From the IMG/VR virus record IMGVR_UViG_3300023290_000120: a DNA stretch of 9,411 nt; one strand, written 5' to 3'. The notes beneath the pieces are model-generated. The model made no database searches and was not told the origin of the DNA. It was given only the letters and a program-made list of their open reading frames with translations. This document shows, piece after piece, positions 1 to 9,411 of the stretch. The stretch comes from a virus (lineage: Duplodnaviria > Heunggongvirae > Uroviricota > Caudoviricetes). Position numbers and translations under genes: made by a program. Each line of letters begins with the position of its first letter. The first letter of the stretch is position 1.

Positions 1-203
1 CGTCGGTGCGTAGCAACAGCCCGCAAGAAGAACGCTATGAGAAAAAAACGGCAAGTAACGGCAAATTCTATTTCAATCTGAAAGCCGCTAATCATCAAAT
101 TATCGGCTCCAGCCAGATGTACGCCACCGCGCAATCTCGTGAAACCGGAATTGCCTCCGTTAAAGCCAATGGCACAAGCCAGACGGTGAAAGACAATACG
201 TAA
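1..203 (+). CDS. yegP: YegP (DUF1508/UPF0339 family), C-terminal part; 5' end cut by window edge
   Basis: The frame is open from the window edge (codon phase from base 3) to TAA at 201-203. The translation ...SNSPQEERYEKKTASNGKFYFNLKAANHQIIGSSQMYATAQSRETGIASVKANGTSQTVKDNT matches the second DUF1508 repeat of E. coli YegP as I remember it. The ORF-track start at 6 is an internal GTG, not the true start. Its position just upstream of yegQ fits E. coli gene order. Confidence 0.8.
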   Translation, partial: SVRSNSPQEERYEKKTASNGKFYFNLKAANHQIIGSSQMYATAQSRETGIASVKANGTSQTVKDNT

Positions 204-210
204 TTACGAT

Positions 211-244
211 GCCGGGCGTGGGTTGTTGGCGTCCGGCTTTATAT
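211..244 (+). terminator. Probable intrinsic terminator of yegP
   Basis: Stem 211-218 gccgggcg pairs with 230-237 cgtccggc (8 bp, one G.U), with an 11-nt loop, followed by tttatat at 238-244. It begins 8 nt after the yegP stop. Confidence 0.5.
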
Positions 245-355
245 CCAAATAACGCTTAGTTATTAATAATTAAGAGTAACCGCCGCCATTAAAATAGTGG
301 GCACTGACGAGCACTCGTTGTGCTTTCTTTGTTTACCATCCCATACTTATCCTCC

Positions 356-367
356 TGAACATGTTCA
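356..367. promoter_or_regulatory. Perfect 12-bp palindrome TGAACATGTTCA upstream of the antitoxin gene; candidate operator
   Basis: Read directly: tgaacatgttca is its own reverse complement. It lies about 90 bp upstream of the antitoxin ATG in an AT-rich stretch. RHH antitoxins typically autoregulate through inverted repeats. No clear sigma70 -35/-10 pair could be assigned. Confidence 0.3.
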
Positions 368-456
368 TGTGCCAAAATATCTTCTAATACTTTCGTGACG
401 CTATCCGGTTTATGACATACACTGATGTAAGATTTTTACTTACAGGCGGGCGTAAA

Positions 457-708
457 ATGGCCAGAACGATGACGGTTGATCTCGGCGATGAGTTGCGTGA
501 ATTTATCGAGTCCTTAATTGAATCCGGCGACTATCGCACCCAAAGCGAAGTGATCCGTGAGTCACTGCGATTACTTCGAGAAAAGCAAGCAGAGTCTCGC
601 CTGCAAGCGTTACGTGACATGCTCGCAGAAGGGTTGAGTAGTGGTGAAGCTCAGCCGTGGGAAAAGGACGCGTTCTTACGGAAGGTGAAAGCAGGGATAA
701 GGAAATAA
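457..708 (+). CDS. ParD-family (ribbon-helix-helix, CopG/Arc-like) type II antitoxin, 83 aa
   Basis: Translation MARTMTVDLGDELREFIESLIESGDYRTQSEVIRESLRLLREKQAESRLQALRDM... has the N-terminal RHH pattern and size of ParD/COG3609 antitoxins. ATG at 457-459 has a GGCGGG purine-rich patch upstream. The stop TAA at 706-708 lies 1 nt before the toxin start. The track ORF begins at 412, but that 15-codon extension is not typical for the family. Confidence 0.8.
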   Translation: MARTMTVDLGDELREFIESLIESGDYRTQSEVIRESLRLLREKQAESRLQALRDMLAEGLSSGEAQPWEKDAFLRKVKAGIRK

Positions 709-709
709 T

Positions 710-1006
710 GTGCGTATTATTAAACTCATGCCAAAAGCCAATGAGGATTTAGAAGGCATCTGGTATTACAGCTATCACCATTTCGGCGAACCACAAGCCG
801 ACAGATATGTGGAACATCTTTCAGACGTTCTCCAGATTCTGAGTAACAATAATATAGGTACGCCCAGACCTGAATTAGGCGAAGGTATTTTTGTTCTTCC
901 TTTTGAACGCCACGTCATTTATTTCCTGCAATCACCAGGGGAAATTATCGTCATTCGTATCCTTAACCAAAACCAGGACGCCACCAGACATTTACACTGG
1001 AGCTAA
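710..1006 (+). CDS. ParE/RelE-family type II toxin, 98 aa
   Basis: GTG start at 710-712 is preceded by AAGGAA at 699-704. The N-terminal pattern MRIIKLMPKANEDLEGIWYY matches the ParE signature (hydrophobic strand, then A..DL..I..Y). The C-terminal HVIYFLQSPGEIIVIRILNQNQD matches the conserved ParE/RelE beta-sheet core. Size and antitoxin-first order are canonical. An alternative ATG start at 728 would remove the first beta-strand. Confidence 0.8.
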   Translation: MRIIKLMPKANEDLEGIWYYSYHHFGEPQADRYVEHLSDVLQILSNNNIGTPRPELGEGIFVLPFERHVIYFLQSPGEIIVIRILNQNQDATRHLHWS

Positions 1007-1058
1007 ACCCGCCGATTGCGCTACAATGCCCGCCCTTAAAGTGGGGGCACTCCCCTAA

Positions 1059-1079
1059 CCGCTTCATCAGGTGAAGCGG
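1059..1079. other. Perfect stem-loop (8-bp stem ccgcttca/tgaagcgg, 5-nt loop) between the toxin gene and yegQ
   Basis: Read directly from the sequence. There is no downstream U-run, so it is not a classical intrinsic terminator. It could be an RNA-stability or processing element, or the edge of the TA insertion. Confidence 0.3.
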
Positions 1080-1108
1080 ATCTGACCTGTCATCAGAACG
1101 AGAGAATT

Positions 1109-2470
1109 ATGTTTAAACCGGAACTCCTTTCCCCGGCGGGAACGCTGAAAAATATGCGTTACGCTTTCGCTTATGGCGCAGATGCTGTTTATGCGGGCCA
1201 GCCGCGTTATTCCCTGCGTGTGCGCAACAACGAATTCAACCACGAAAATCTTCAGCTCGGCATCAATGAAGCCCACGCGCTGGGGAAAAAGTTTTATGTC
1301 GTGGTCAACATTGCACCGCACAACGCCAAGCTGAAAACCTTTATCCGTGACCTGAAACCGGTGGTGGAAATGGGGCCGGATGCGCTGATTATGTCCGATC
1401 CAGGGCTGATTATGCTGGTGCGTGAGCACTTCCCTGAAATGCCGATCCACCTTTCGGTGCAGGCTAACGCCGTGAACTGGGCGACGGTGAAATTCTGGCA
1501 GCAAATGGGCCTGACCCGCGTGATCCTCTCTCGCGAGCTGTCGCTGGAAGAGATTGAAGAGATCCGCAATCAGGTGCCGGATATGGAGATCGAGATCTTC
1601 GTTCACGGCGCGCTGTGCATGGCCTACTCCGGTCGCTGCCTGCTCTCTGGCTATATCAACAAGCGCGACCCGAACCAGGGCACCTGCACCAACGCCTGCC
1701 GCTGGGAGTACAATGTCCAGGAAGGGAAAGAAGATGACGTCGGCAACATCGTACACAAGTACGAGCCGATTCCGGTGCAAAATGTTGAGCCGACGCTGGG
1801 TATCGGCGCGCCAACCGACAAAGTGTTTATGATCGAAGAAGCCCAGCGTCCGGGCGAGTATATGACCGCGTTTGAAGATGAGCACGGCACTTACATCATG
1901 AACTCGAAAGATCTGCGCGCCATCGCCCATGTAGAACGCCTGACCAAAATGGGCGTGCATTCGCTGAAAATCGAAGGTCGTACCAAATCTTTCTACTATT
2001 GTGCACGCACCGCACAGGTTTACCGCAAAGCTATCGATGACGCCGCTGCGGGAAAACCGTTCGATACCAGCCTGCTGGAAACTCTGGAAGGTCTGGCGCA
2101 TCGTGGCTATACCGAAGGTTTCCTGCGTCGTCATACTCACGACGATTATCAGAACTACGAATACGGTTATTCAGTTTCTGACCGCCAGCAGTTTGTTGGT
2201 GAGTTTACCGGTGAGCGCAAGGGGGACCTCGCGGCGGTAGCGGTGAAAAATAAATTCTCCGTTGGCGACAGCCTTGAGCTGATGACGCCGCAAGGCAACA
2301 TTAACTTTACCCTTGAGCATATGGAAAACGCCAAAGGTGAAGCGATGCCGGTCGCACCAGGCGATGGTTATACTGTGTGGCTCCCGGTGCCGCAGGATCT
2401 TGAGCTAAATTACGCGCTGCTGATGCGTAATTTCTCCGGGGAAACCACGCGTAACCCCCACGGTAAGTGA
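1109..2470 (+). CDS. yegQ: Peptidase U32-family protein YegQ (TrhP, tRNA U34 hydroxylation)
   Basis: Uninterrupted 453-aa ORF with ATG at 1109 and GAGAG upstream. The protein, with its conserved Cys-rich block CTNACRWEY and MFKPELLSPAGTLKNMRYAF start, matches E. coli YegQ as I recall it. The 357-aa ORF on the opposite strand is a shadow frame. Confidence 0.95.
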   Translation: MFKPELLSPAGTLKNMRYAFAYGADAVYAGQPRYSLRVRNNEFNHENLQLGINEAHALGKKFYVVVNIAPHNAKLKTFIRDLKPVVEMGPDALIMSDPGLIMLVREHFPEMPIHLSVQANAVNWATVKFWQQMGLTRVILSRELSLEEIEEIRNQVPDMEIEIFVHGALCMAYSGRCLLSGYINKRDPNQGTCTNACRWEYNVQEGKEDDVGNIVHKYEPIPVQNVEPTLGIGAPTDKVFMIEEAQRPGEYMTAFEDEHGTYIMNSKDLRAIAHVERLTKMGVHSLKIEGRTKSFYYCARTAQVYRKAIDDAAAGKPFDTSLLETLEGLAHRGYTEGFLRRHTHDDYQNYEYGYSVSDRQQFVGEFTGERKGDLAAVAVKNKFSVGDSLELMTPQGNINFTLEHMENAKGEAMPVAPGDGYTVWLPVPQDLELNYALLMRNFSGETTRNPHGK

Positions 2471-2501
2471 TTAATTTCGATTATTTTTCCCGGATGGAAA
2501 A

Positions 2502-2547
2502 TTCTTAGAAACCGATCACATACAGCTGCATTTATTAAGGTTATCAT
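2502..2547 (+). promoter_or_regulatory. cyaR promoter region: putative CRP site (about 2502-2523, TCACA half-site at 2516-2520) and -10-like TATCAT (2542-2547)
   Basis: TATCAT ends 7 nt before the inferred CyaR 5' end. The TCACA half-site puts a CRP site centre near -42, consistent with the known class II CRP dependence of cyaR. The left half-site is degenerate (ttaga), so exact boundaries are uncertain. Confidence 0.4.
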
Positions 2548-2606
2548 CCGTTTCGCTGAAAAACATAACCCATAAAATGCTAGCTGTACCAGGAACCACC
2601 TCCTTA

Positions 2607-2641
2607 GCCTGTGTAATCTCCCTTACACGGGCTTATTTTTT
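2607..2641 (+). terminator. CyaR intrinsic terminator
   Basis: Stem 2607-2616 gcctgtgtaa pairs with 2623-2632 ttacacgggc (10 bp, one G.U), loop tctccc, followed by ttatttttt at 2633-2641. Confidence 0.75.
2615..2641. other. P2-type attachment-site core (27 bp) at the prophage/host junction, inside the CyaR terminator
   Basis: aatctcccttacacgggcttatttttt is the reverse complement of AAAAAATAAGCCCGTGTAAGGGAGATT, which I recall as the P2 att core. It lies about 100 bp from the ogr stop, where P2 places attP relative to ogr. Confidence 0.75.
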
Positions 2642-2682
2642 ACGCGTAATACAATGAAATAAAAGGATTTATTTCTGGTCAC

Positions 2683-2700
2683 GTCCACACATTGACCACA
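2683..2700 (-). promoter_or_regulatory. Two direct repeats (- strand TGTGGTCA ... TGTGGACG, 11 bp apart) in the att arm; candidate integrase arm-type sites
   Basis: Seen on the + strand as gtccaca (2683-2689) and gaccaca (2694-2700), one helical turn apart, between the att core and ogr. I recall the P2 Int arm-site consensus as TGTGGACA-like, but I am not certain of that. Confidence 0.25.
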
Positions 2701-2703
2701 TCG

Positions 2704-2731
2704 ACAAAAAAGCCCCTCGACTGAGGGGCTT
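2704..2731 (-). terminator. Intrinsic terminator downstream of ogr
   Basis: Perfect hairpin gcccctc / gact / gaggggc (2712-2729, extendable to 9 bp), followed on the - strand by a U-run (+ strand aaaaaa at 2706-2711). It starts about 12 nt after the ogr stop. Confidence 0.7.
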
Positions 2732-2742
2732 CCTGTTTGTAA

Positions 2743-2961
2743 TTACATCCACATAATTTGCTGCCCTGACGGCAACGGGTGCGGTCTTACGGCGTGGACT
2801 TCTCCCGGCTTCACGATGTATCGCTGTACCGACTCATAAGTGATGAACGTGGCGCTGCAATTCACGTTCTGGCACTGGTGATAACGCTCTTTTGTCGTGT
2901 CAGTGATATAGCGACTTGTACGCGCATGTGCGGCATGCTGGCATAAAGGACAATGAAACAT
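2743..2961 (-). CDS. ogr: Ogr, zinc-finger activator of P2 late transcription, 72 aa
   Basis: Translation MFHCPLCQHAAHARTSRYITDTTKERYHQCQNVNCSATFITYESVQRYIVKPGEVHAVRPHPLPSGQQIMWM has the Cys-X2-Cys-X22-Cys-X4-Cys Ogr/Delta zinc-finger spacing. ATG at 2959-2961 (+ strand cat) has GAAGAGG upstream. The 93-aa track ORF adds 21 in-frame codons that are not part of Ogr. Confidence 0.9.
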   Translation of the reverse strand: MFHCPLCQHAAHARTSRYITDTTKERYHQCQNVNCSATFITYESVQRYIVKPGEVHAVRPHPLPSGQQIMWM

Positions 2962-3042
2962 CGCGAGCACCTCTTCCGGTTTTGTTGATGGTGCTATTTT
3001 AGTCAATTTATCCTTATAAAACAAACAGATAAAATAAAGACA
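2962..3042 (-). promoter_or_regulatory. ogr upstream region with a -35-like TTGACT (+ coordinates 3001-3006)
   Basis: TTGACT is read directly on the - strand. No convincing -10 sits at 16-18 bp spacing, so the promoter assignment is tentative. Confidence 0.25.
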
Positions 3043-4206
3043 TCACTCATCATCTTCTGTTTCGTACTCCACATCAGAAAGCCTGACCTCAAGCTCCAAG
3101 GACGTCGTGAAGCCGCTATTATTCAGAAAATGTGTCACCTTAGTGATTGTCCAGTCCTGCTCGTCTATGACGCGCTTAAAGCCTGACACTTTAACCGGTG
3201 TTTCCGTGTAAATATCTGCCCGACCGGTAGCCAGGCTGATGGAGAACTCCGCAACGCCCCGTTGCAGTTTGTCCCACTTCGCCTGAGCGGCGCGCATGGC
3301 CTGCGCTTTCGTGGCATATACCGTGGTCAGGGCAAAAACGTTGTCAGCCTCACCGGCCATGTATTCACCTTCACGCGCTTCCGGTACTTTAGGCGCTTTC
3401 TTCTGCCTGACCGGTTTCGCTTTCGGGTGCTCCAGTGCGCGCAGGTGTTTCTCTTTCTTTTTGCGTTTCAGTTTTACCTTCTGCTTTTGCGGCTTCGGGT
3501 CTTTGGTGTGTAACCACTTTGCCGTTACGCCGGTATAGGCTCCACGATCAGCAATCGCAAAATGATGACGGTCACCGTCGCTGCGGGTGATGGTAATCTG
3601 CGGGATTTTTTTACCGCTGGCAGTCACCCCCTGCCCCGCTTTGAGAAACAGCAGTTTTCCCATTTTTACCGACACCTCACCGCCGTTGCGTTCAGCAAGA
3701 CGGGTCAGGAATTTCGCATCAGACTCCTGCGACTGGTCGATGTGCGGGATTTTAATTCCGGCCAGTGACGGAGCAACACGGGCTTCCAGCCTGTTACGGG
3801 AGGCTATCGCCTCAACAATCGCACCGAGCGTGGTGTCATGCCAGGAGCCTTCCCGGCGGGAATTGAGCGTCCCGCGAAAATCTGCACTCCGGGCGCGGAT
3901 GGTGACCACATCCGGCGCGCCCCGGTGTTCAACCTCATCAACGGTAAATTTCCCTTTGCATACCAGGGCAAAACCTTTCCAGCCGATATACACCGTCAGG
4001 ACAGCGCCACGAACCGGCAGCCCGACCTGCCCGTCGGCATCGTTCAGTTCAATATCAAGCTGGTCAGCCTCAAAGCCCCGGTTATCCGTCAGGGTCATGC
4101 TCATCAGACGGTCGCTGATATTGCCGGTAATATCCCTGCTGTCGAGCATCAGCATGTAATCCGGCGTCAGCGTACTGCCTGCATCAAATGTCAGCGCATC
4201 CAGCAT
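3043..4206 (-). CDS. D: P2 gpD-like tail protein (late control gene D family), 387 aa
   Basis: 387-aa ORF in the P2 position between U and ogr. Its ATG overlaps the U stop as TAATG. It contains an internal Lys/Pro-rich basic linker. Confidence 0.9.
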   Translation of the reverse strand: MLDALTFDAGSTLTPDYMLMLDSRDITGNISDRLMSMTLTDNRGFEADQLDIELNDADGQVGLPVRGAVLTVYIGWKGFALVCKGKFTVDEVEHRGAPDVVTIRARSADFRGTLNSRREGSWHDTTLGAIVEAIASRNRLEARVAPSLAGIKIPHIDQSQESDAKFLTRLAERNGGEVSVKMGKLLFLKAGQGVTASGKKIPQITITRSDGDRHHFAIADRGAYTGVTAKWLHTKDPKPQKQKVKLKRKKKEKHLRALEHPKAKPVRQKKAPKVPEAREGEYMAGEADNVFALTTVYATKAQAMRAAQAKWDKLQRGVAEFSISLATGRADIYTETPVKVSGFKRVIDEQDWTITKVTHFLNNSGFTTSLELEVRLSDVEYETEDDE

Positions 4207-4685
4207 TATCCCGCCCCCGTCATACCCGTGAATTTAGTCGCCATACTGCCAGCCTTACCGATGAGCGATTCCGCCTGTTTACCGATATCGCCATAAAGCG
4301 CGGCCAGTGATTCATCCACGCGGGTGAGTGACAGCGTAAAATCAATTTTCCGGGGTGTGCCGTCTGCAAAGAAAATACTCCCTGTTTCACTCACCCTGCT
4401 GATGACATACATGCCGTAAATCATGCCGGTGCCATCCAGCAACGGCCACGCCCGGCCTTCCTCTGCCATCAGTCTGAGCGTGGTCATCGTCAGCTTTCCG
4501 CCGGTCAGTTCAGGATAAAGCACACCGGCAAGCGTAATGTTTTCCTCACCCACACCGAGAAACTGGTAGGCATCCCGTTTACCGATACGGGAATTTGACG
4601 GCCAGCGATAATCTGATTCACGCTGCATGGTCTGGTGTGGCAGCGTCTGGCGCATAAAAACAAACATACCTAACGCGAGCATCAT
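4206..4685 (-). CDS. U: P2 gpU-like tail protein, 159 aa
   Basis: 159-aa ORF in the P2 position. AGGAGG lies 7 nt upstream of the ATG, and the stop overlaps the D start. Confidence 0.9.
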   Translation of the reverse strand: MMLALGMFVFMRQTLPHQTMQRESDYRWPSNSRIGKRDAYQFLGVGEENITLAGVLYPELTGGKLTMTTLRLMAEEGRAWPLLDGTGMIYGMYVISRVSETGSIFFADGTPRKIDFTLSLTRVDESLAALYGDIGKQAESLIGKAGSMATKFTGMTGAG

Positions 4686-4699
4686 TTTTCGTCACCTCC

Positions 4700-7147
4700 T
4701 TAACCGTCATGCATCATGCTGGCACGGGCGCGCGCACGTTTATCCCGCTCGTATTTTTCGAGTGCATCCTGTAACTGGCGGTCGAGCTGTGTCCCCGGCG
4801 CAGTACCGCCCGTCAGGTTGATGTGATATTCGTTTTTACTCTGGTCCACATAAGAGCGGCCAGCCGGTGCCGTGACCGGCTGATAAGCCTGATAACCTGC
4901 ATAAGAGCTGGCCGCCGGAATATAACCACCGGTGCCATACGTGGCGGCATGAGTTCTGGCGGCGGTCTGGTCAAGCGTGCCTGACTCTTTGTTGATAACG
5001 CCGAGTTTTTCCAGTACCCAGTCAATACCGCCGCGCAGTTTGTTGAACGCATTAAGCGGCAGCATCAGCGCGTCAGCCAGTGCCTGCCCGAACATGACGC
5101 CAGTATCACGGCAACGGTTCAGGGTGTCCTGGGTGGCTTTGACCGGGGCAATCAGGTTTTTAAACCACTGCCACGCGGCCTGTAACTTTTCACCCAGCCA
5201 GTCAAACACCGGCTTAAGTGGCGTGAACAGTTCCCCCACCGGCGCAAATGCCGCTTTCAGCCCTTCAACCACACCGCCGAAGAATGCGCTGACAGGCTCC
5301 CAGTATTTACGGATAAGCAACGCCCCGGCGACAATTGCGGCCACCACGGCCACAACCGGCCAGCTAATCGCCCCGATGGCGGTCATAACAGCACTGCCAA
5401 CCGTCATGAAGACTGCCCCCATTGCGCCTGCTGCCGCGATGATGGCATTGATGCCGGTGATAACCGGCCAGGCTACGAGGCCAATGGCACCGATGATGCC
5501 AATCAGCGCCAGCGCGCCACCGACAATGAGGCCGATGGTTGACGCCAGTGATTTGTTTTTCTGGATCCAGCCGTCGAGTTTTAACACATACTTTGTGGCC
5601 GTCTGCGTGAGCTTACGCAGTGCGCCTTCCTGCTGGTCAAACAGGTCTGTCCCCACCGCCTCATAAGCGGACTGAAACTCCTTAAAGTCACCGCCGAGGT
5701 TGTCCTGCATGATATTTACCAGCTCGGCAGTCTTCCCGTCTGAGGCTTTAAACGCAGCGGTCAGTTTGTCCAGCTTTCCGGTTGAGGCGGCAGTCATCAG
5801 CACGGCGGCGGCTGAGCTGGCCTCCTCCCCGAAAATAGTTTTCATGTATTCAGCCTGCTGGGCAGTACCGAGCCGGTTTTTCTCAAAACTGGCCTGCATT
5901 TCTTTCAGAATGGTAAATATTGGCCGGGTGTTTCCCTTGCTGTCTGAGGTTTTCACTCCAAGCTCTTTGAGTGCATCCCATGCTTTTCCCGTCGGTGCCT
6001 GCAGGCGGCTTAACACGGCACGGCTTCCCGTCCCCGCCATTGAGCCTGTGATTTTTGCATCATGCAGCGCCCCGACCATTGCGGCGGTTTCTTCAATGCT
6101 GACACCGGCATTTTTTGCCACAGGTGCGGCATAGGTCAGCGCATCGCTCATACCGTCAAAATCGGCGGCGGTTTTGTTCATCGTCATGGAGAGAACATCC
6201 CCGATATGAGCAACCTTATCGTTTGAAAGCTGAAAGGCAGATTTCATCCCCATCAGCAGGGCGGCGTTTTCTTCCATCGTGCGACGGTTCGCCAGCGCCA
6301 TATTCAGCGTGACCGGCGTTGCCGCCTGAATGGCATCAACATCCCCACCCGCTTTCGCGATGATTATCTGTGCACCGGCCGCATCATCCGCCGAGGCGGC
6401 GGTATTGTCGCCGAGCTGGCGCGCCTGCTTGCGTAGCGCGGCCATTTCGGCGGAGTCTTTTGCCACACCGAGCACGGCCTGTAATTCTGAGTTTTTCTGC
6501 GCAAATTCATAACCGGGCATCAGCAGCTTAACACCGGCCATCGTTCCCGCCGCCGCAATCCCCACACCGGCAGCGCCCACTGAGGCCATATTTCCGGCCA
6601 GCTCCTTTCCTGCCTGATAGCGCTGTTTTACTGCGTTAAGTTTTGCCTGTTGCGCACTGACACGCGCCAGCGCGTCACGCTGCCGGTTAAGCTGTGCGGT
6701 GGTTTCACTGATACGGTTTTTCAGTCCCTGCTCATCATGTGCAAGATTGCGGGTATTAATTCCCACAGCGGCCAGTTCCCGCTGCTGGCGTTTAACGGAA
6801 TCCGTCAGGCGGTTATATTTCGCCTGTAAGTCCTCCGCCGCTCGCTTTGCGGATTCCAGCACTTTCGCCTGAGCACGGGTCGGACGTTCGGTGTTTTTAA
6901 ACTGTGTGGCAAGGGCTTCGGCTTCCTGCCGTGCCTTTTCAAGTGCATGACCAGTCACGGCGAGCTGCGCACTGGTCTTGCGAAATCCCTCAATACGGGA
7001 TGCGTGACCGTTCAGCTCGCGCAGTGATTTTTGTGTTTCCCGGATATCCCCCGACAGCGACTTGCTCGCTGTGCGGATGGATTTAAACGGGCGGGATGCC
7101 TGGTCAACAGCCCTGAGCAATACCTGTAATTTTACATTGTTACTCAT
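4700..7147 (-). CDS. T: P2 gpT-like tail tape measure protein, 815 aa
   Basis: 815-aa ORF with a coiled-coil-like N-terminal half (Ala, Gln, Arg, Leu-rich heptads) and a long Gly/Ala/Ile-rich hydrophobic segment (IGLIVGGALALIGIIGAIG...), both typical of tape measure proteins. It sits between E/E' and U. Confidence 0.9.
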   Translation of the reverse strand: MSNNVKLQVLLRAVDQASRPFKSIRTASKSLSGDIRETQKSLRELNGHASRIEGFRKTSAQLAVTGHALEKARQEAEALATQFKNTERPTRAQAKVLESAKRAAEDLQAKYNRLTDSVKRQQRELAAVGINTRNLAHDEQGLKNRISETTAQLNRQRDALARVSAQQAKLNAVKQRYQAGKELAGNMASVGAAGVGIAAAGTMAGVKLLMPGYEFAQKNSELQAVLGVAKDSAEMAALRKQARQLGDNTAASADDAAGAQIIIAKAGGDVDAIQAATPVTLNMALANRRTMEENAALLMGMKSAFQLSNDKVAHIGDVLSMTMNKTAADFDGMSDALTYAAPVAKNAGVSIEETAAMVGALHDAKITGSMAGTGSRAVLSRLQAPTGKAWDALKELGVKTSDSKGNTRPIFTILKEMQASFEKNRLGTAQQAEYMKTIFGEEASSAAAVLMTAASTGKLDKLTAAFKASDGKTAELVNIMQDNLGGDFKEFQSAYEAVGTDLFDQQEGALRKLTQTATKYVLKLDGWIQKNKSLASTIGLIVGGALALIGIIGAIGLVAWPVITGINAIIAAAGAMGAVFMTVGSAVMTAIGAISWPVVAVVAAIVAGALLIRKYWEPVSAFFGGVVEGLKAAFAPVGELFTPLKPVFDWLGEKLQAAWQWFKNLIAPVKATQDTLNRCRDTGVMFGQALADALMLPLNAFNKLRGGIDWVLEKLGVINKESGTLDQTAARTHAATYGTGGYIPAASSYAGYQAYQPVTAPAGRSYVDQSKNEYHINLTGGTAPGTQLDRQLQDALEKYERDKRARARASMMHDG

Positions 7148-7567
7148 TCGTGTTTCCGCTTCGCCGGAGCGCCTTTTCGCGCCATGTGATGAGTTCAGTC
7201 AGGCTCATGGGATACAGTTCTGATGGCGGCCAGTGAAATATCACTGCCACATCCGCCATCAGGTCATCGACCGAGAGATTTTTCGGAAACGTCACTGCAC
7301 CGAGTTCGGCGACAAAAAACCGACCACCTTACCGGCCAGCGCCACAAGGTCAGGCAGTTCCAGCGCGGCGACTTCCTGCTCGGTCAGCATCGGTGCCGTC
7401 ATGCGCGGCAGCACTTTAATCAGTGCATCGACTTCGGAGTTCGCGACTGCAGCCAGACTGACACCGCGCAGCGTCCCGGCATTGGGTTTCATCAGCGTGA
7501 CCTGTTCGATAACCTGCTCACCACGTTTGACCGGATTGTCTAGGGTAATGACGTTTTCTTTGTTCAT
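7140..7567 (-). CDS. E+E': P2 E+E' tail assembly chaperone made by -1 programmed frameshift, 142 aa
   Basis: After a -1 slip at TTTTTTG the frame stays open for 57 codons (VAELGAVTFPKNLSVDDLMADVAVIFHWPPSELYPMSLTELITWREKALRRSGNTNE) and ends at TAA (7140-7142) inside the T start as ATGAGTAA. Total length is 85 + 57 = 142 aa. I translated this by hand from the reverse complement. Confidence 0.75.
7292..7567 (-). CDS. E: P2 gpE-like tail assembly chaperone (zero-frame product), 91 aa
   Basis: 91-aa ORF between FII and T ending ...GFLSPNSVQ, with stop TGA at 7292-7294. Confidence 0.85.
   Translation of the reverse strand: MNKENVITLDNPVKRGEQVIEQVTLMKPNAGTLRGVSLAAVANSEVDALIKVLPRMTAPMLTEQEVAALELPDLVALAGKVVGFLSPNSVQ
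7313..7319 (-). other. Slippery heptamer T TTT TTG (- strand) for the E to E+E' frameshift
   Basis: The + strand caaaaaa at 7313-7319 gives - strand TTTTTTG, placed 6 codons before the E stop. This is the T6G motif described for the P2 E/E' frameshift. Confidence 0.7.
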
Positions 7568-7595
7568 GGTTTTCTCACTTCTGAATCGGGGTTAA

Positions 7596-7616
7596 CCGGT
7601 CAGCCAGGCTGACCGG
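7596..7616 (-). other. Perfect 9-bp stem-loop (ccggtcagc / cag / gctgaccgg) between the FII stop and the E start
   Basis: Read directly from the sequence. It sits 8 nt after the FII stop and 28 nt before the E ATG, with no U-run. It could protect the 3' end of the upstream FI-FII message or reduce translation of E and T. Confidence 0.35.
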
Positions 7617-7623
7617 ATGAAAA

Positions 7624-8142
7624 TCACAGGCCGATATTGCGGCGGTGTTGCTCCAGCCGGTCGACGCCGTTCACCTTCTCAATCATGTTGATGGTGTCGA
7701 TTTCGACCAGCTCCTTACCGTCCATCGTCAGCCGGAAATAGGTGCAGACCACGGAGATTTTCGACTCGGTGTCTTCTCCCTGTTTGCCCTCGCCGGTGTC
7801 GATTTCTTTCTGACGTCCACGCATGACCACCTCGACGGCCACCGTTTCGCCGGTATCGTCGCGCTGGTAAGAGCCTGCAAAACGAATCGGTACGGCATCC
7901 ACACCGGTTGCGGCGTAAAGCTCCCAGATAACCGAATCCGGGAAGCCACCGAGCGACCACTCCATTGACAGCGCATCGTCATCAAGGCCGAGGTCTACCG
8001 GTGCGCTGCCGTTCATCCCCGCACCGCGATAGTTTTCGAGCTTACGGGTCAGTTTTGGCAGCGTGACGGACTTCGCGACGCCCTGATAGCTGTAGCCGTT
8101 CAGAAAGACGTTCATTAACTTGAGTTTGCGCGGCATTGCCAT
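7624..8142 (-). CDS. FII: P2 gpFII-like major tail tube protein, 172 aa
   Basis: 172-aa ORF immediately downstream of FI with a 12-nt spacer containing GGAG. Size and position match P2 FII. Confidence 0.9.
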   Translation of the reverse strand: MAMPRKLKLMNVFLNGYSYQGVAKSVTLPKLTRKLENYRGAGMNGSAPVDLGLDDDALSMEWSLGGFPDSVIWELYAATGVDAVPIRFAGSYQRDDTGETVAVEVVMRGRQKEIDTGEGKQGEDTESKISVVCTYFRLTMDGKELVEIDTINMIEKVNGVDRLEQHRRNIGL

Positions 8143-8154
8143 CGGTCAGGCTCC

Positions 8155-9345
8155 TTAATTGCTGTTAACCGAGGTGACCAGATTTGCCAGGTATTTATCA
8201 GTAATACGCTGGCGCAGGGTCAGGTTTTCAAGAGGAGGCACCGGGGTATAGTCGTAGTCGATATACAGTTTTCCGGCCTTGAGGGTTTCCGCATCGTTGG
8301 ATTCTTCGCTGAACCAGCAGGTCGCATCCACGATATAGCCGTTTGTTTTCAGCTCACGGAATTTGGCATTGATGCCGTCAACGATGTCGCGAATCAGCGT
8401 TGCGGTGATGGGCTTGTCCACCGCCCACATGTGCGCCTCAGCCATCGTGTCGGCCAGCACCTGCGCGGTGCGGGTGTAGTTTTCAAAGAGGAACAGCGGG
8501 TCATCAGAGCAGGTACGGTTACCCCAGAAGCGAAAACCGTCGCGGCGAATCAGCGTTGTGACGCCTGACTCGTTAAGCAGGTCAGCATCGGTGCCGGACT
8601 CCTGCAAATCCCAGAATACAGAGGCGCTGATGCCGGTAACACCGTTCACCCCGACATTGGACAGCGTTTTATGCCAGCCCTGCTCCTGGTCGATTTTAGC
8701 GCGCAGCCCCAGCGCACGGGCGGTGGCATACGCGGTGGCGGTGGTACTGGTGACCGTATCCCATGCGAGGAAATCCGGCCAGATGACCATCAGCTCACGC
8801 TGGCTGAAATTCTGACGGTAGGCTTTCACCTCGGAAATGGTTTTACAGCCCCATGCGCTGATATACCCGAAAGCGCGCAACTTCTGACAGACTGATGCCA
8901 GTGCAACAGCCACCTCTTTGGTGTCCAGTCCCGGCACGCCGAGAATACGCGGTTTAACACCGGTTACCGACTCCGCCGCCAGCAGGGCTTTCAGTCCGGT
9001 GTACTGACCGTTTTCGTCGGTGGTGCCGATGATATTGGAAACGGTCTGCGCGAGTTTCGTTTCCTCGTCGTCGCCGGTGCCGTCTTCCACACGCACGACA
9101 ACGGTGACCGGTTTTGACTGGTCGGCGATGGCCTGCAACGATGCCGCCAGCGTGCCTTTTTTACCGGCCTTTGCAATTGCGCTCTGCACATTGGTAATCA
9201 GCACAGGTTTATTGAGGGGGAAGGTTTCCGCATCCGCATCGCTGGCCGTGCAGACCATGCCGACAATGGCCGTGGATACGGTGGAAATGACGCGGGTGCC
9301 GTCGTTAATCTCCAGCACCTGCACGCCATGATGATAGTCACTCAT
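8155..9345 (-). CDS. FI: P2 gpFI-like contractile tail sheath protein, 396 aa
   Basis: 396-aa ORF, first gene of the FI-FII-E-T-U-D block. Size and position match the P2 sheath protein. Confidence 0.9.
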   Translation of the reverse strand: MSDYHHGVQVLEINDGTRVISTVSTAIVGMVCTASDADAETFPLNKPVLITNVQSAIAKAGKKGTLAASLQAIADQSKPVTVVVRVEDGTGDDEETKLAQTVSNIIGTTDENGQYTGLKALLAAESVTGVKPRILGVPGLDTKEVAVALASVCQKLRAFGYISAWGCKTISEVKAYRQNFSQRELMVIWPDFLAWDTVTSTTATAYATARALGLRAKIDQEQGWHKTLSNVGVNGVTGISASVFWDLQESGTDADLLNESGVTTLIRRDGFRFWGNRTCSDDPLFLFENYTRTAQVLADTMAEAHMWAVDKPITATLIRDIVDGINAKFRELKTNGYIVDATCWFSEESNDAETLKAGKLYIDYDYTPVPPLENLTLRQRITDKYLANLVTSVNSN

Positions 9346-9411
9346 CCGTTTAACTCTGAATCGCCACAGATAATCTAGACACTTCCGAGCCGCTGATAAT
9401 ATTGTTTTTCG
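9346..9411 (-). promoter_or_regulatory. FI leader and probable late promoter (P_F-like), truncated at the window edge
   Basis: On the - strand a TAGATT/GATTAT -10-like element lies about 25-30 nt upstream of the FI ATG. An Ogr-type TGT-N12-ACA site centred near -55 would straddle or lie beyond base 9411; only a possible ACA half (9402-9404) is visible. Confidence 0.3.

What the first reader, a model, noticed from the sequence alone, without database searches (positions are those of the whole stretch)
204..1108. ParD/ParE-like toxin-antitoxin pair in the yegP-yegQ intergenic space
yegP and yegQ are separated here by about 900 bp holding a coupled antitoxin-toxin pair (RHH ParD-like 457-708, ParE/RelE-like 710-1006, 1-nt spacing). 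From memory, these genes are close neighbours in E. coli K-12 with no TA module between them, so this looks like a small strain-variable insertion. The island is visibly more AT-rich than its flanks and has a perfect palindrome upstream and a perfect hairpin downstream. It sits about 1.5 kb from a prophage junction. Chromosomal TA pairs next to prophage integration sites are candidates for abortive-infection or prophage-stabilisation roles, but nothing in the sequence shows function.
Basis: partly seen in the sequence, partly recalled or inferred. Interest (0 to 1): 0.5.

Follow-up and report, generated by a model that had tools for sequence, protein, structure and literature searches.

The report
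Chromosomal ParD/ParE toxin-antitoxin insertion
A 780-bp insertion between the E. coli core genes yegP and yegQ carries an ordinary, already-annotated ParD/ParE toxin-antitoxin pair that about a third of sequenced E. coli strains have and that shows no link to the neighbouring prophage.

Summary
Window 457-708 encodes an 83-aa ParD antitoxin (Pfam PF03693, E 4e-19). Window 710-1006 encodes a 98-aa ParE toxin (PF05016, E 2e-13), one base downstream. The insertion spans 238-1017, not 204-1108. It replaces 21 bp of the empty K-12, O157:H7 and E. albertii allele, and its GC is 44% against 54% for yegQ.

It is accessory: 1844 of 5426 complete E. coli genomes carry it, always at this locus. RefSeq already annotates both genes as a ParD/ParE pair. 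Another 298 genomes have a 5.3-kb four-gene cassette there, still bounded by the island's left arm and the last ~20 nt of parE. An unnamed Escherichia species keeps only a decayed parE tail.

The closest solved relative is PrpA/PrpT of Pseudoalteromonas rubra. IncF-type plasmids carry homologues with ParD 90-92% and ParE 63-65% identical. They share the inverted repeat TGTAAG-N7-CTTACA beside a -10 box, the likely operator.

The prophage idea is not supported. yegQ and cyaR separate the pair from the P2-like prophage. Prophage occupancy is 15.2% with the pair and 13.1% without. No defence-system model matches.

Function (gyrase poisoning, autoregulation) is inferred from family, not shown. Interest is low.

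The parts
238..1017 (.). Inserted island (780 bp) between yegP and yegQ. It replaces 21 bp of the empty allele. It has no target-site duplication, no terminal inverted repeats and no recombinase gene.
   Evidence: Alignments to C600, O157:H7, E. albertii and NRG857C. GC 0.440.
238..303 (.). AT-rich left arm of the island. It is also kept in the B2-type 5.3-kb cassette allele and, diverged, in the Escherichia sp. E1V33 remnant. It contains the 10-nt palindrome TTATTAATAA (260-269), which strain CT282 has deleted.
   Evidence: No plasmid relatives for 238-425.
356..367 (.). Perfect 12-nt palindrome TGAACATGTTCA, about 30 bp upstream of the putative -35. It is unchanged in six E. coli alleles although positions 352 and 369 vary. 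Its role is unknown.
   Evidence: Chance expectation is 21% of shuffles.
395..423 (+). Putative sigma-70 promoter of parDE: -35 GTGACG (395-400), 17-nt spacer, -10 TACACT (418-423). It matches 8 of 12 consensus positions, below the scanner's threshold.
   Evidence: Read from the sequence. A -10 box sits at the same position in plasmid homologues: TATAAT, TATAGT, TAAACT. The consensus scan did not report it.
426..444 (.). Inverted repeat TGTAAG-ATTTTTA-CTTACA, between the -10 box and the start codon. It is the predicted ParD (RHH) operator.
   Evidence: Unique in the window, 0 of 200 shuffles. The arms are conserved in three plasmid homologues while upstream DNA is unalignable. Invariant in six E. 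coli alleles.
457..708 (+). parD: 83-aa ribbon-helix-helix antitoxin. The true start is most likely ATG 457, not RefSeq's ATG 412.
   Evidence: PF03693 E 4.3e-19 and TIGR02606 E 2.3e-25, both matching from residue 1-4. PrpA (7YCS chain D) E 1.9e-27. Plasmid homologues start at the equivalent ATG. Strain CT282 has a +1 insertion at 456 that breaks the 412 frame but leaves the 83-aa ORF intact.
710..1006 (+). parE: 98-aa ParE/RelE-superfamily toxin with a GTG start, one base after the parD stop.
   Evidence: PF05016 E 1.8e-13. PDB matches: PrpT 7YCS 2.3e-12, M. tuberculosis ParE1 8C24 5.8e-8, Caulobacter ParE1 3KXE 2.3e-7, V. cholerae ParE2 7R5A 6.8e-7. The GTG is conserved in plasmid homologues. 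RefSeq WP_001220181.1.
1059..1079 (+). Perfect 8-bp-stem hairpin. It is NOT part of the island: it lies in the core yegQ upstream spacer and is present in the empty alleles.
   Evidence: The 1000-1110 fold is no more stable than shuffles (z -0.72).
6..203 (+). Context: 3' end of yegP (DUF1508).
1109..2470 (+). Context: yegQ/trhP (U32-family tRNA hydroxylase), a core gene that separates the TA pair from the prophage.
2553..2638 (+). Context: CyaR sRNA. The P2-like prophage (ogr, D, U, T and onward) begins at about 2643, immediately after it.
   Evidence: Rfam RF00112, 100.7 bits. Alignment to a prophage-free strain. ORFs and Pfam.

Best explanation
This is a two-gene type II toxin-antitoxin operon of the ParD(PF03693)/ParE(PF05016) kind. 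It was inserted once into the yegP-yegQ spacer of an Escherichia ancestor and is now fixed at that one locus as a segregating accessory allele.

**Shown here**
- The family membership of both proteins.
- The antitoxin-first, tightly coupled gene order.
- The insertion boundaries.
- The presence/absence pattern across genomes.
- The relation to plasmid-borne homologues.

**Inferred from the family**
- A weak sigma-70 promoter (395-423) drives both genes.
- A ParD dimer binds the inverted repeat at 426-444 through its N-terminal ribbon-helix-helix and represses the operon.
- The ParD C-terminal half wraps and neutralises ParE.
- If ParD is degraded faster than it is replaced, free ParE poisons DNA gyrase and stops growth.

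The pair most likely persists as a selfish or neutral addiction-type module of plasmid ancestry, not as a partner of the nearby P2-like prophage.
For: **Family and gene order**
- Pfam and NCBIfam scores are well above the curated cut-offs.
- Every solved-structure match at E < 0.01 is a ParE or ParD chain, covering 92 of 98 and 77 of 83 residues.
- One base separates the genes, and the GTG start is conserved.

**Promoter and operator**
- The inverted repeat at 426-444 is unique in the window, with 0 of 200 shuffles matching.
- It is conserved, with an adjacent -10 box, in plasmid copies of about 70% nucleotide identity whose upstream DNA does not align.
- It is invariant in six E. coli alleles.

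**Intactness and constraint**
- Both ORFs are intact in all six alleles examined.
- ParD is under strong constraint: dN 0.05 with saturated dS against the plasmid copies.

**Distribution and ancestral state**
- 1844 of 5426 genomes carry it.
- The exact ParE protein was found only in the baeSR-yegP-parD-parE-yegQ context in the 10 distinct places shown.
- The empty allele is ancestral: E. albertii is identical in form to K-12, and Enterobacter, Citrobacter and Kluyvera have yegP and yegQ about 150 bp apart.
- Plasmid ancestry is plausible: 881 plasmids carry homologues at 60-80% nucleotide identity.
Against: - No experiment on this locus was found. Toxicity, neutralisation, DNA binding and the target are all inferred.
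- The promoter matches only 8 of 12 consensus positions, and the scanner did not call it.
- Three residues implicated in V. cholerae ParE2 toxicity (F20, W25, H88; preprint 10.1101/2025.07.24.666505) correspond here to Y20, F25 and N86. The usually conserved His is lost. W25F lowered toxicity in that study.
- Neither PrpT paper searched mentions gyrase, so the closest characterised relative gives no target.
- parE shows more amino-acid change than parD: 6 nonsynonymous to 4 synonymous, against 1 to 6, among six alleles. The toxin may be attenuated.
Confidence: 0.8

Rival explanations
1. Phage-related role. The pair acts as an abortive-infection module, or it stabilises the adjacent P2-like prophage or its integration site.
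For: It lies 1.64 kb from the prophage junction. Some TA systems are known to act in phage defence or to stabilise prophages (review PMC7167474).
Against: - The core gene yegQ and the sRNA gene cyaR lie between the pair and the prophage.
- Of 1844 genomes with the pair, 280 (15.2%) have the P2-type prophage at this site. Of 3580 without it, 470 (13.1%) do. The odds ratio is about 1.2, not corrected for phylogeny.
- Neither protein matches a PADLOC defence model.
- Only one weak, partial phage-record match was found.
Confidence: 0.07
2. Anti-addiction or cross-talk module. The chromosomal ParD neutralises or cross-represses the homologous parDE carried by IncF-type plasmids, while the toxin matters little.
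For: - ParD is 90-92% identical to the plasmid ParDs, with 49-50 of the first 50 residues the same. ParE is only 63-65% identical.
- The operator repeat is shared.
- ParE accumulates amino-acid changes within E. coli while ParD does not.
- Homologues occur on 881 plasmids, 461 of them from Escherichia.
- PrpA, 61% identical to this ParD, has a second DNA-binding role at a plasmid origin (PMC7848731).
Against: - Cross-neutralisation was not tested.
- parE stays intact in every allele examined, and the exact toxin protein is indexed in about 69,000 blocks of public assemblies. That is not expected if only the antitoxin mattered.
- The one E. coli IncF copy examined is already a pseudogene.
Confidence: 0.1
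3. Decaying remnant. The module no longer works as a toxin-antitoxin pair and is drifting toward loss.
For: - Loss is tolerated. Escherichia sp. E1V33 keeps only a frameshifted 3' third of parE.
- 298 E. coli genomes replaced the genes with another cassette.
- parE dN/dS is 0.64 between the window and RS571, on only seven changes.
- The conserved His of the ParE C-terminal region is absent.
Against: - Both ORFs are full length in all six diverged alleles.
- parD has 6 synonymous changes to 1 nonsynonymous.
- The operator and start region are conserved. Strain CT282 even gains a better Shine-Dalgarno sequence.
Confidence: 0.1
4. The toxin is a RelE-like ribosome-dependent mRNA nuclease rather than a gyrase poison.
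For: ParE and RelE share one fold and one Pfam clan. RefSeq names the protein only 'RelE/ParE family toxin'. The target of the closest relative, PrpT, is not reported in the papers read.
Against: No RelE chain appears among PDB matches up to E = 1. All significant matches are ParE toxins, three of them from systems reported to act on gyrase (M. tuberculosis ParE1, Caulobacter ParE1, V. cholerae ParE2). The partner is a ParD-type antitoxin, not RelB-type.
Confidence: 0.08

Closest known systems
PrpA/PrpT of Pseudoalteromonas rubra megaplasmid pMBL6842 (PDB 7YCS, 7YCU; PMC7848731, PMC9731233)
   Same: It is the same pairing of a PF03693 ParD-type RHH antitoxin with a PF05016 ParE toxin, antitoxin first. 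It gives the best solved-structure matches: ParD E 1.9e-27 with 47 of 77 residues identical, and ParE E 2.3e-12 with 31 of 93 identical. In both cases the antitoxin is much more conserved than the toxin.
   Different: PrpAT is plasmid-borne, and PrpA also binds origin iterons to set plasmid copy number. Here the pair is chromosomal with no origin nearby. PrpA's reported motif (G/A)TTTG(T/A)AAT(A/G) is not the TGTAAG-N7-CTTACA repeat found here.
Plasmid-borne parDE homologues of Enterobacterales (e.g. K. pneumoniae pINF078-VP, Pantoea stewartii pDSJ09, E. coli IncFIA/FIB plasmids)
   Same: Nucleotide identity is about 69-71% from the operator through the parE stop. ParD is 90-92% and ParE 63-65% identical. 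They share the -10 box, inverted repeat, ATG and GTG starts, and the 98-aa toxin length.
   Different: Plasmid parD is 88 aa and overlaps parE by 14 nt. Here parD is 83 aa and ends one base before parE. The 180 bp left of the operator has no plasmid counterpart. The E. coli IncF copy examined is a pseudogene.
Gyrase-poisoning ParDE systems: M. tuberculosis ParDE1 (8C24), Caulobacter ParDE1 (3KXE), V. cholerae ParDE2 (7R5A)
   Same: There is significant sequence similarity over nearly the whole toxin (E 6e-8 to 7e-7) and antitoxin (E 3e-12 to 9e-11). They have the same RHH antitoxin plus ParE toxin architecture.
   Different: V. cholerae ParE2 residues F20, W25 and H88, linked to toxicity, are Y20, F25 and N86 here. 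Gyrase inhibition was not tested for this protein.
RK2 ParDE and the IncI/IncF ParDE-I system (PMC6614396)
   Same: Both have ParE-superfamily toxins with RHH antitoxins and act as plasmid addiction modules.
   Different: According to PMC7848731, the RK2 antitoxin belongs to a different family (PF09386). ParDE-I has a 93-aa toxin and a COG3905-type antitoxin. Neither was shown here to be a close relative.
PaaR2-PaaA2-ParE2 of E. coli O157:H7 cryptic prophages
   Same: It is a ParE-family toxin on an E. coli chromosome.
   Different: It has three components and lies inside a prophage, where it is thought to stabilise it (PMC7167474). The pair here has two components and lies outside the prophage. 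The ParE2 structure 5CZF was not among the PDB sequence matches up to E = 1.

Membership tests
Type II ParD/ParE toxin-antitoxin system | The toxin matches the ParE/RelE-superfamily profile above the curated threshold. | tested here: met
   PF05016: 51.3 bits against a cut-off of 23, covering profile positions 1-88 of 89. PDB ParE chains match at E 2e-12 to 7e-7.
Type II ParD/ParE toxin-antitoxin system | The antitoxin is a ParD-type ribbon-helix-helix protein. | tested here: met
   PF03693: 69.2 bits against 21. TIGR02606: 88.4 against 46.2. A weak RHH_1 match. PDB ParD chains match at E 2e-27 to 9e-11.
Type II ParD/ParE toxin-antitoxin system | The antitoxin gene lies directly upstream of the toxin gene in one tightly coupled operon. 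| tested here: met
   The parD stop is at 706-708 and the parE GTG at 710, both on the same strand. The arrangement is conserved in plasmid homologues.
Type II ParD/ParE toxin-antitoxin system | The operon is autoregulated through an operator repeat at the promoter. | tested here: inconclusive
   The inverted repeat at 426-444 next to a -10-like box is unique and conserved across plasmid and E. coli alleles. Binding and repression cannot be tested here. The promoter is sub-threshold in the consensus scan.
Type II ParD/ParE toxin-antitoxin system | The toxin arrests growth, and the cognate antitoxin neutralises it by direct binding. | not testable with these tools
   This needs expression experiments. 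The only indirect support is that both ORFs are intact in six alleles.
ParE branch (gyrase poison) as opposed to RelE branch (mRNA nuclease) | The toxin acts on DNA gyrase. It is closer to ParE than to RelE. | tested here: inconclusive
   All PDB matches are ParE and none is RelE, up to E = 1. However, the V. cholerae ParE2 toxicity-linked residues are only partly conserved (Y20, F25, N86). Activity cannot be tested here.
Known anti-phage defence systems (PADLOC) | A protein matches a model of a known or candidate defence system. | tested here: not met
   Neither protein matches at E <= 0.01.
Prophage-borne or prophage-linked TA module | The module lies inside the prophage or co-occurs with it. 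| tested here: not met
   It lies outside the prophage, separated by yegQ and cyaR. Prophage occupancy is 15.2% with the pair and 13.1% without. The same ParE protein is seen with and without the prophage.
Autonomous mobile element (IS, transposon, integron cassette, integrative island) | The element has a recombinase or transposase gene, terminal repeats or a target-site duplication. | tested here: not met
   The island holds only the two TA genes. No repeats at the ends were seen in the junction alignments. It occupies a single fixed locus.

The most novel reading that the evidence does not exclude
The unusually conserved chromosomal ParD may have a job beyond neutralising its own toxin. Its RHH domain is essentially identical to that of IncF-plasmid ParDs, and it is 61% identical to PrpA, which controls plasmid copy number. 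It could act in trans on IncF-type plasmids that carry homologous, often decayed, parDE copies next to their RepFIB-type replication genes. The effect could be anti-addiction, cross-repression or an influence on plasmid copy number. One third of E. coli strains would then treat these plasmids differently from the rest.
Probability: 0.08. Interest if true: 0.55.

Novelty: already known. Interest (0 to 1): 0.15.

Why it matters
It matters little beyond bookkeeping. It confirms a strain-variable ParD/ParE module that RefSeq already annotates (WP_001307279.1, WP_001220181.1).

The checks add a few useful details:
- exact insertion boundaries;
- the likely correct antitoxin start (457 rather than 412);
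- a candidate operator;
- evidence that the yegP-yegQ spacer is a small replacement hotspot with three states in complete E. coli genomes: parDE 34%, a 5.3-kb four-gene cassette 5.5%, and the remaining ~60%, empty in every strain examined.

It also removes the tempting link to the adjacent prophage. If the toxin were shown to be active, it would be one more chromosomal ParE to compare with plasmid copies. That would be of interest mainly for plasmid-chromosome cross-talk.

Tried and rejected
- **Prophage association.** Three megablast counts gave a 2x2 table: 280 of 1844 against 470 of 3580. There is no meaningful enrichment.
- **Defence-system models.** PADLOC gave nothing for ParD or ParE, and nothing for the four proteins of the alternative cassette.
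- **Phage records.** The only hit was one partial match at 72% identity in a 2-kb Salmonella phage fragment.
- **Origin of the left 188 bp of the island.** The only plasmid-collection hits are two chromosome records filed as plasmids.
- **Terminator or structured RNA downstream of parE.** The fold of 1000-1110 is no better than shuffles (z -0.72). Rfam at gathering threshold finds only CyaR in 1-3200.
- **Consensus promoter scan.** It found no + strand promoter upstream of parD. The promoter proposed here rests on comparison with plasmid copies.
- **Small ORFs in 204-460.** Only 28-aa and 33-aa ORFs were found. I did not follow them up.
- **Literature.** No paper mentions the two RefSeq accessions or a TA pair between yegP and yegQ. 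The E. coli defence-island survey does not mention yegP, yegQ or cyaR in its main text.
- **ParDE-I of IncI/IncF plasmids.** I rejected it as the closest plasmid relative because its toxin length and antitoxin family differ.
- **Not run.** I did not run the large protein homology searches or structure prediction. Profile and PDB sequence matches had already settled family membership.
Full report
**1. What is in the window.**
The window runs through these features in order:
- the 3' end of yegP (6-203, DUF1508);
- a 905-bp spacer;
- yegQ/trhP (1109-2470, peptidase U32 family);
- the CyaR sRNA (2553-2638; Rfam RF00112, 100.7 bits);
- a P2-like prophage read leftward from ogr (2743-3024, minus strand) through genes for D, U, the tape measure, E, FII and FI.

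The spacer holds two + strand ORFs. One is at 457-708 (ATG, 83 aa). The other is at 710-1006 (GTG, 98 aa). The first stop codon is at 706-708, so a single base separates them.

**2. Boundaries of the inserted DNA.**
I aligned the window to C600 (K-12 lineage), O157:H7 strain 2571 and E. albertii. Identity runs up to position 237 and resumes at 1018. In between, the window has 780 bp where those genomes have 21 bp (GCTTTACCAGAGCCCCCCACA, or a near variant).

A few bases at each edge can be aligned either way (TTTA on the left, CCCGCC/CCCCCC on the right). The break points are therefore good to about ±5 bp. There is no target-site duplication, no terminal inverted repeat and no recombinase gene.

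Island GC is 0.440, and 0.379 in its non-coding left part. This compares with 0.483 for the yegP fragment and 0.543 for yegQ.

The 12-nt palindrome TGAACATGTTCA (356-367) is real, but 21% of shuffles contain one as long. The perfect hairpin at 1059-1079 is real (7.6% of shuffles). However, it lies in the core spacer that the empty alleles share, so it is not an island feature. It has no T-run, and the region folds no better than shuffles.

**3. Family of the two proteins.**

| Protein | Profile matches | Best solved-structure matches |
|---|---|---|
| 83 aa (ParD) | PF03693 ParD_antitoxin, E 4.3e-19, 69.2 bits vs cut-off 21; TIGR02606, E 2.3e-25, 88.4 vs 46.2 | PrpA, 7YCS chain D, E 1.9e-27, 47/77 identical |
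| 98 aa (ParE) | PF05016 ParE_toxin, E 1.8e-13, 51.3 bits vs 23 | PrpT, 7YCS chain A, E 2.3e-12, 31/93 identical |

The identity of 7YCS as PrpT/PrpA of the Pseudoalteromonas rubra megaplasmid comes from PMC13048266.

The next-best structures are M. tuberculosis ParDE1 (8C24), Caulobacter ParDE1 (3KXE) and V. cholerae ParDE2 (7R5A). No RelE chain appears up to E = 1. RefSeq already annotates the two genes as 'ParD family antitoxin' (WP_001307279.1) and 'RelE/ParE family toxin' (WP_001220181.1). The TA call is therefore sound, and it is not new.

**4. Start codon, promoter and operator.**
RefSeq starts parD at ATG 412 (98 aa). Four observations favour ATG 457:
- Both antitoxin profiles align from residues 1-4 of the 83-aa form.
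- Plasmid homologues start at the equivalent ATG and have no upstream in-frame ATG region that aligns.
- E. coli CT282 has a +1 insertion at 456. RefSeq therefore flags its parD as 'frameshifted', yet the 83-aa ORF is untouched. The same allele changes AGGCGGG to AGGAGAG, a better ribosome-binding site.
- A -10-like hexamer (TACACT, 418-423) lies downstream of the 412 ATG. It sits where the plasmid copies have TATAAT, TATAGT or TAAACT.

Together with GTGACG at 395-400 and a 17-nt spacer, this makes an 8-of-12 promoter. The consensus scanner did not report it, so it remains putative.

Directly after it lies the inverted repeat TGTAAG-ATTTTTA-CTTACA (426-444). It is unique in the window, with 0 of 200 shuffles matching. 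Its arms are conserved in three plasmid homologues whose upstream DNA is unalignable. It is invariant in six E. coli alleles. By analogy with other RHH antitoxins, this is the likely ParD operator. Binding itself is inferred.

**5. Distribution.**
Of 5426 complete E. coli genomes, 1844 (34%) contain at least 80% of window 1-1200, meaning the island.
- Carriers include O104:H4, O111:H8 and O121 strains.
- K-12, BL21-derived BAP1, HS, O157:H7, O145:H28 and ST131 strains have the empty allele.

The exact ParE protein is indexed in about 69,000 blocks of public assemblies. In all ten distinct places shown, it sits in the same baeS-baeR-yegP-parD-parE-yegQ context, with or without the P2-type prophage downstream.

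Outside E. coli:
- E. albertii has the empty allele.
- Enterobacter, Citrobacter braakii and Kluyvera georgiana have yegP and yegQ about 150 bp apart, with no parDE.

Empty is therefore the ancestral state, and the island is an insertion.

**6. The site is a small replacement hotspot.**
In NRG857C and 297 other genomes (5.5%), the spacer holds a different 5.3-kb cassette. This group includes the type strain ATCC 11775. The cassette has four minus-strand genes: a hypothetical protein, DUF4034, DUF1266 and a PcfJ-like protein.

The cassette is bounded on the left by the first ~65 bp of the parDE island. On the right it is bounded by the last ~20 nt of parE (ACATTTACACTGGAGCTAA) plus the island's right edge. 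It therefore replaced parDE in an allele that once had it.

Escherichia sp. E1V33 keeps a diverged left arm joined to the 3' third of parE, which is frameshifted and has lost its stop codon. The insertion is thus old within Escherichia. It has been lost or overwritten more than once, and it now segregates with the ancestral empty allele.

**7. Relation to plasmid copies and selection.**
A sensitive DNA search finds homologues at 60-80% identity (69-71% in the copies listed) on 881 plasmids. Most are conjugative, and 461 are from Escherichia. The match runs from the operator to the parE stop. The 188 bp to the left has no plasmid relative.

| Comparison | ParD | ParE |
|---|---|---|
| Window vs K. 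pneumoniae and Pantoea plasmid copies, amino-acid identity | 90-92% (49-50 of first 50 residues identical) | 63-65% |
| Same comparison, dN (dS saturated) | about 0.05 | about 0.24 |
| Six E. coli alleles, synonymous : nonsynonymous changes | 6 : 1 | 4 : 6 |

Three of the parE changes fall in residues 90-92. The counts are small, but the direction matches the long-term pattern: the antitoxin is more constrained than the toxin. Both ORFs are nevertheless full length in all six alleles.

**8. Mechanism and its limits.**
The best-supported reading is a conventional ParD/ParE module with these steps:
- A ParD dimer represses the operon at 426-444.
- The ParD C-terminal half neutralises ParE.
- Free ParE poisons gyrase.

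Only the family membership and the architecture are shown here. There are three caveats:
- In V. cholerae ParE2, residues F20, W25 and H88 contribute to toxicity, and only Tyr fully replaces W25 (preprint 10.1101/2025.07.24.666505). The aligned residues here are Y20, F25 and N86.
- The two PrpT/PrpA papers do not mention gyrase at all.
- The toxin evolves quickly.

An attenuated toxin, or a different target, therefore cannot be excluded.

**9. The prophage idea.**
The pair lies outside the prophage, with yegQ and cyaR in between. The prophage junction follows the 3' end of cyaR at about 2643.

Counts from three searches give the following:

| | P2-type prophage at this site | Total genomes | Share |
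|---|---|---|---|
| parDE present | 280 | 1844 | 15.2% |
| parDE absent | 470 | 3580 | 13.1% |

In all, 750 genomes hold the prophage junction. The odds ratio is about 1.2 without any correction for shared ancestry, so there is no real association. No PADLOC model matches. The abortive-infection and prophage-stabilisation suggestions are therefore unsupported, though experiment has not excluded them.

**10. Novelty and score.**
Automatic annotation already recognises the module in every RefSeq genome checked here. The general pattern is also described in the literature: TA pairs inserted between core genes, at plastic sites that can hold other elements (PMC7167474). I found no paper on this particular locus.

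I therefore file it as already known and rate interest at 0.15. The one lead with some potential is the very high conservation of ParD relative to ParE, and its near identity to plasmid ParDs. That could mean cross-talk with IncF-type plasmids. I give this about 8%.

Noticed in passing
L005 466-5792 (E. coli NRG857C, NC_017634.1 2187865-2193191); corresponds to window 238-1017: An alternative 5.3-kb cargo sits at the same yegP-yegQ site in 298 of 5426 genomes, including the type strain ATCC 11775. It has four co-oriented genes: a hypothetical protein (201 aa), DUF4034 (702 aa), DUF1266 (238 aa) and a PcfJ-like protein (404 aa). Remnants of both ends of the parDE island flank it. None of the four proteins matches a PADLOC model, and the function is unknown.
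   Followed up: partly
window 457-708 vs 710-1006; L006 2532-3081; L008 2534-3083: The antitoxin is far more conserved than the toxin. ParD is 90-92% identical to the plasmid homologues and ParE 63-65%, with saturated synonymous divergence. Against PrpA/PrpT the figures are 61% and 33%. In many TA families the antitoxin diverges faster, so this hints at an extra constraint on ParD.
   Followed up: partly
window 412-456; L103 431-728 (E. coli CT282): RefSeq starts parD at ATG 412 (98 aa), so it flags the CT282 copy as a frameshifted pseudogene. The +1 insertion lies upstream of the conserved ATG 457, and the 83-aa ORF is intact. This looks like an annotation artefact.
   Followed up: yes
L007 2545-3089 (E. 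coli IncFIA/FIB plasmid pRIVM_C039227_1): The plasmid parDE homologue here is a pseudogene: parD is frameshifted after about 50 codons, and parE has a Trp-to-stop change. It lies about 1.4 kb from a RepB-family replication initiator gene. The same 68.6%-identity match recurs in many E. coli IncF plasmids listed.
   Followed up: no
window 356-367: The perfect palindrome TGAACATGTTCA is unchanged in six E. coli alleles, although positions 352 and 369 on either side vary. It is not statistically unusual, and no binding protein is suggested.
   Followed up: partly
window 262-274: E. coli CT282 has a 13-bp deletion that removes most of the AT-rich near-palindrome in the island's left arm (CTTAGTTATTAATAATTAAG). 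That palindrome is therefore not essential.
   Followed up: no
L009 (CP169086.1, labelled Enterobacter hormaechei B17-3): This record's YegQ is 100% and its YegP 99% identical to the E. coli proteins, and it has an E. coli-type empty spacer. The genome is probably a mislabelled E. coli.
   Followed up: no
NZ_CM148369.1 1757283-1759258 (hit H1): One E. coli strain has an IS1 element inserted within the region that corresponds to window 1-1200. The match is 100% identical but split into two pieces.
   Followed up: no
CP061244.1 and NZ_OL790696.1 in the plasmid collection: Two records of 1.4 Mb and 4.8 Mb that carry the island at 100% identity are filed as plasmids in PLSDB. They are evidently chromosomal sequence.
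   Followed up: no
window 2643-9411: The P2-like prophage abuts the 3' end of cyaR. K-12 strains keep only an ogrK-plus-D' remnant with the same junction. 750 of 5426 genomes have a P2-type ogr-D junction at this site.
   Followed up: partly
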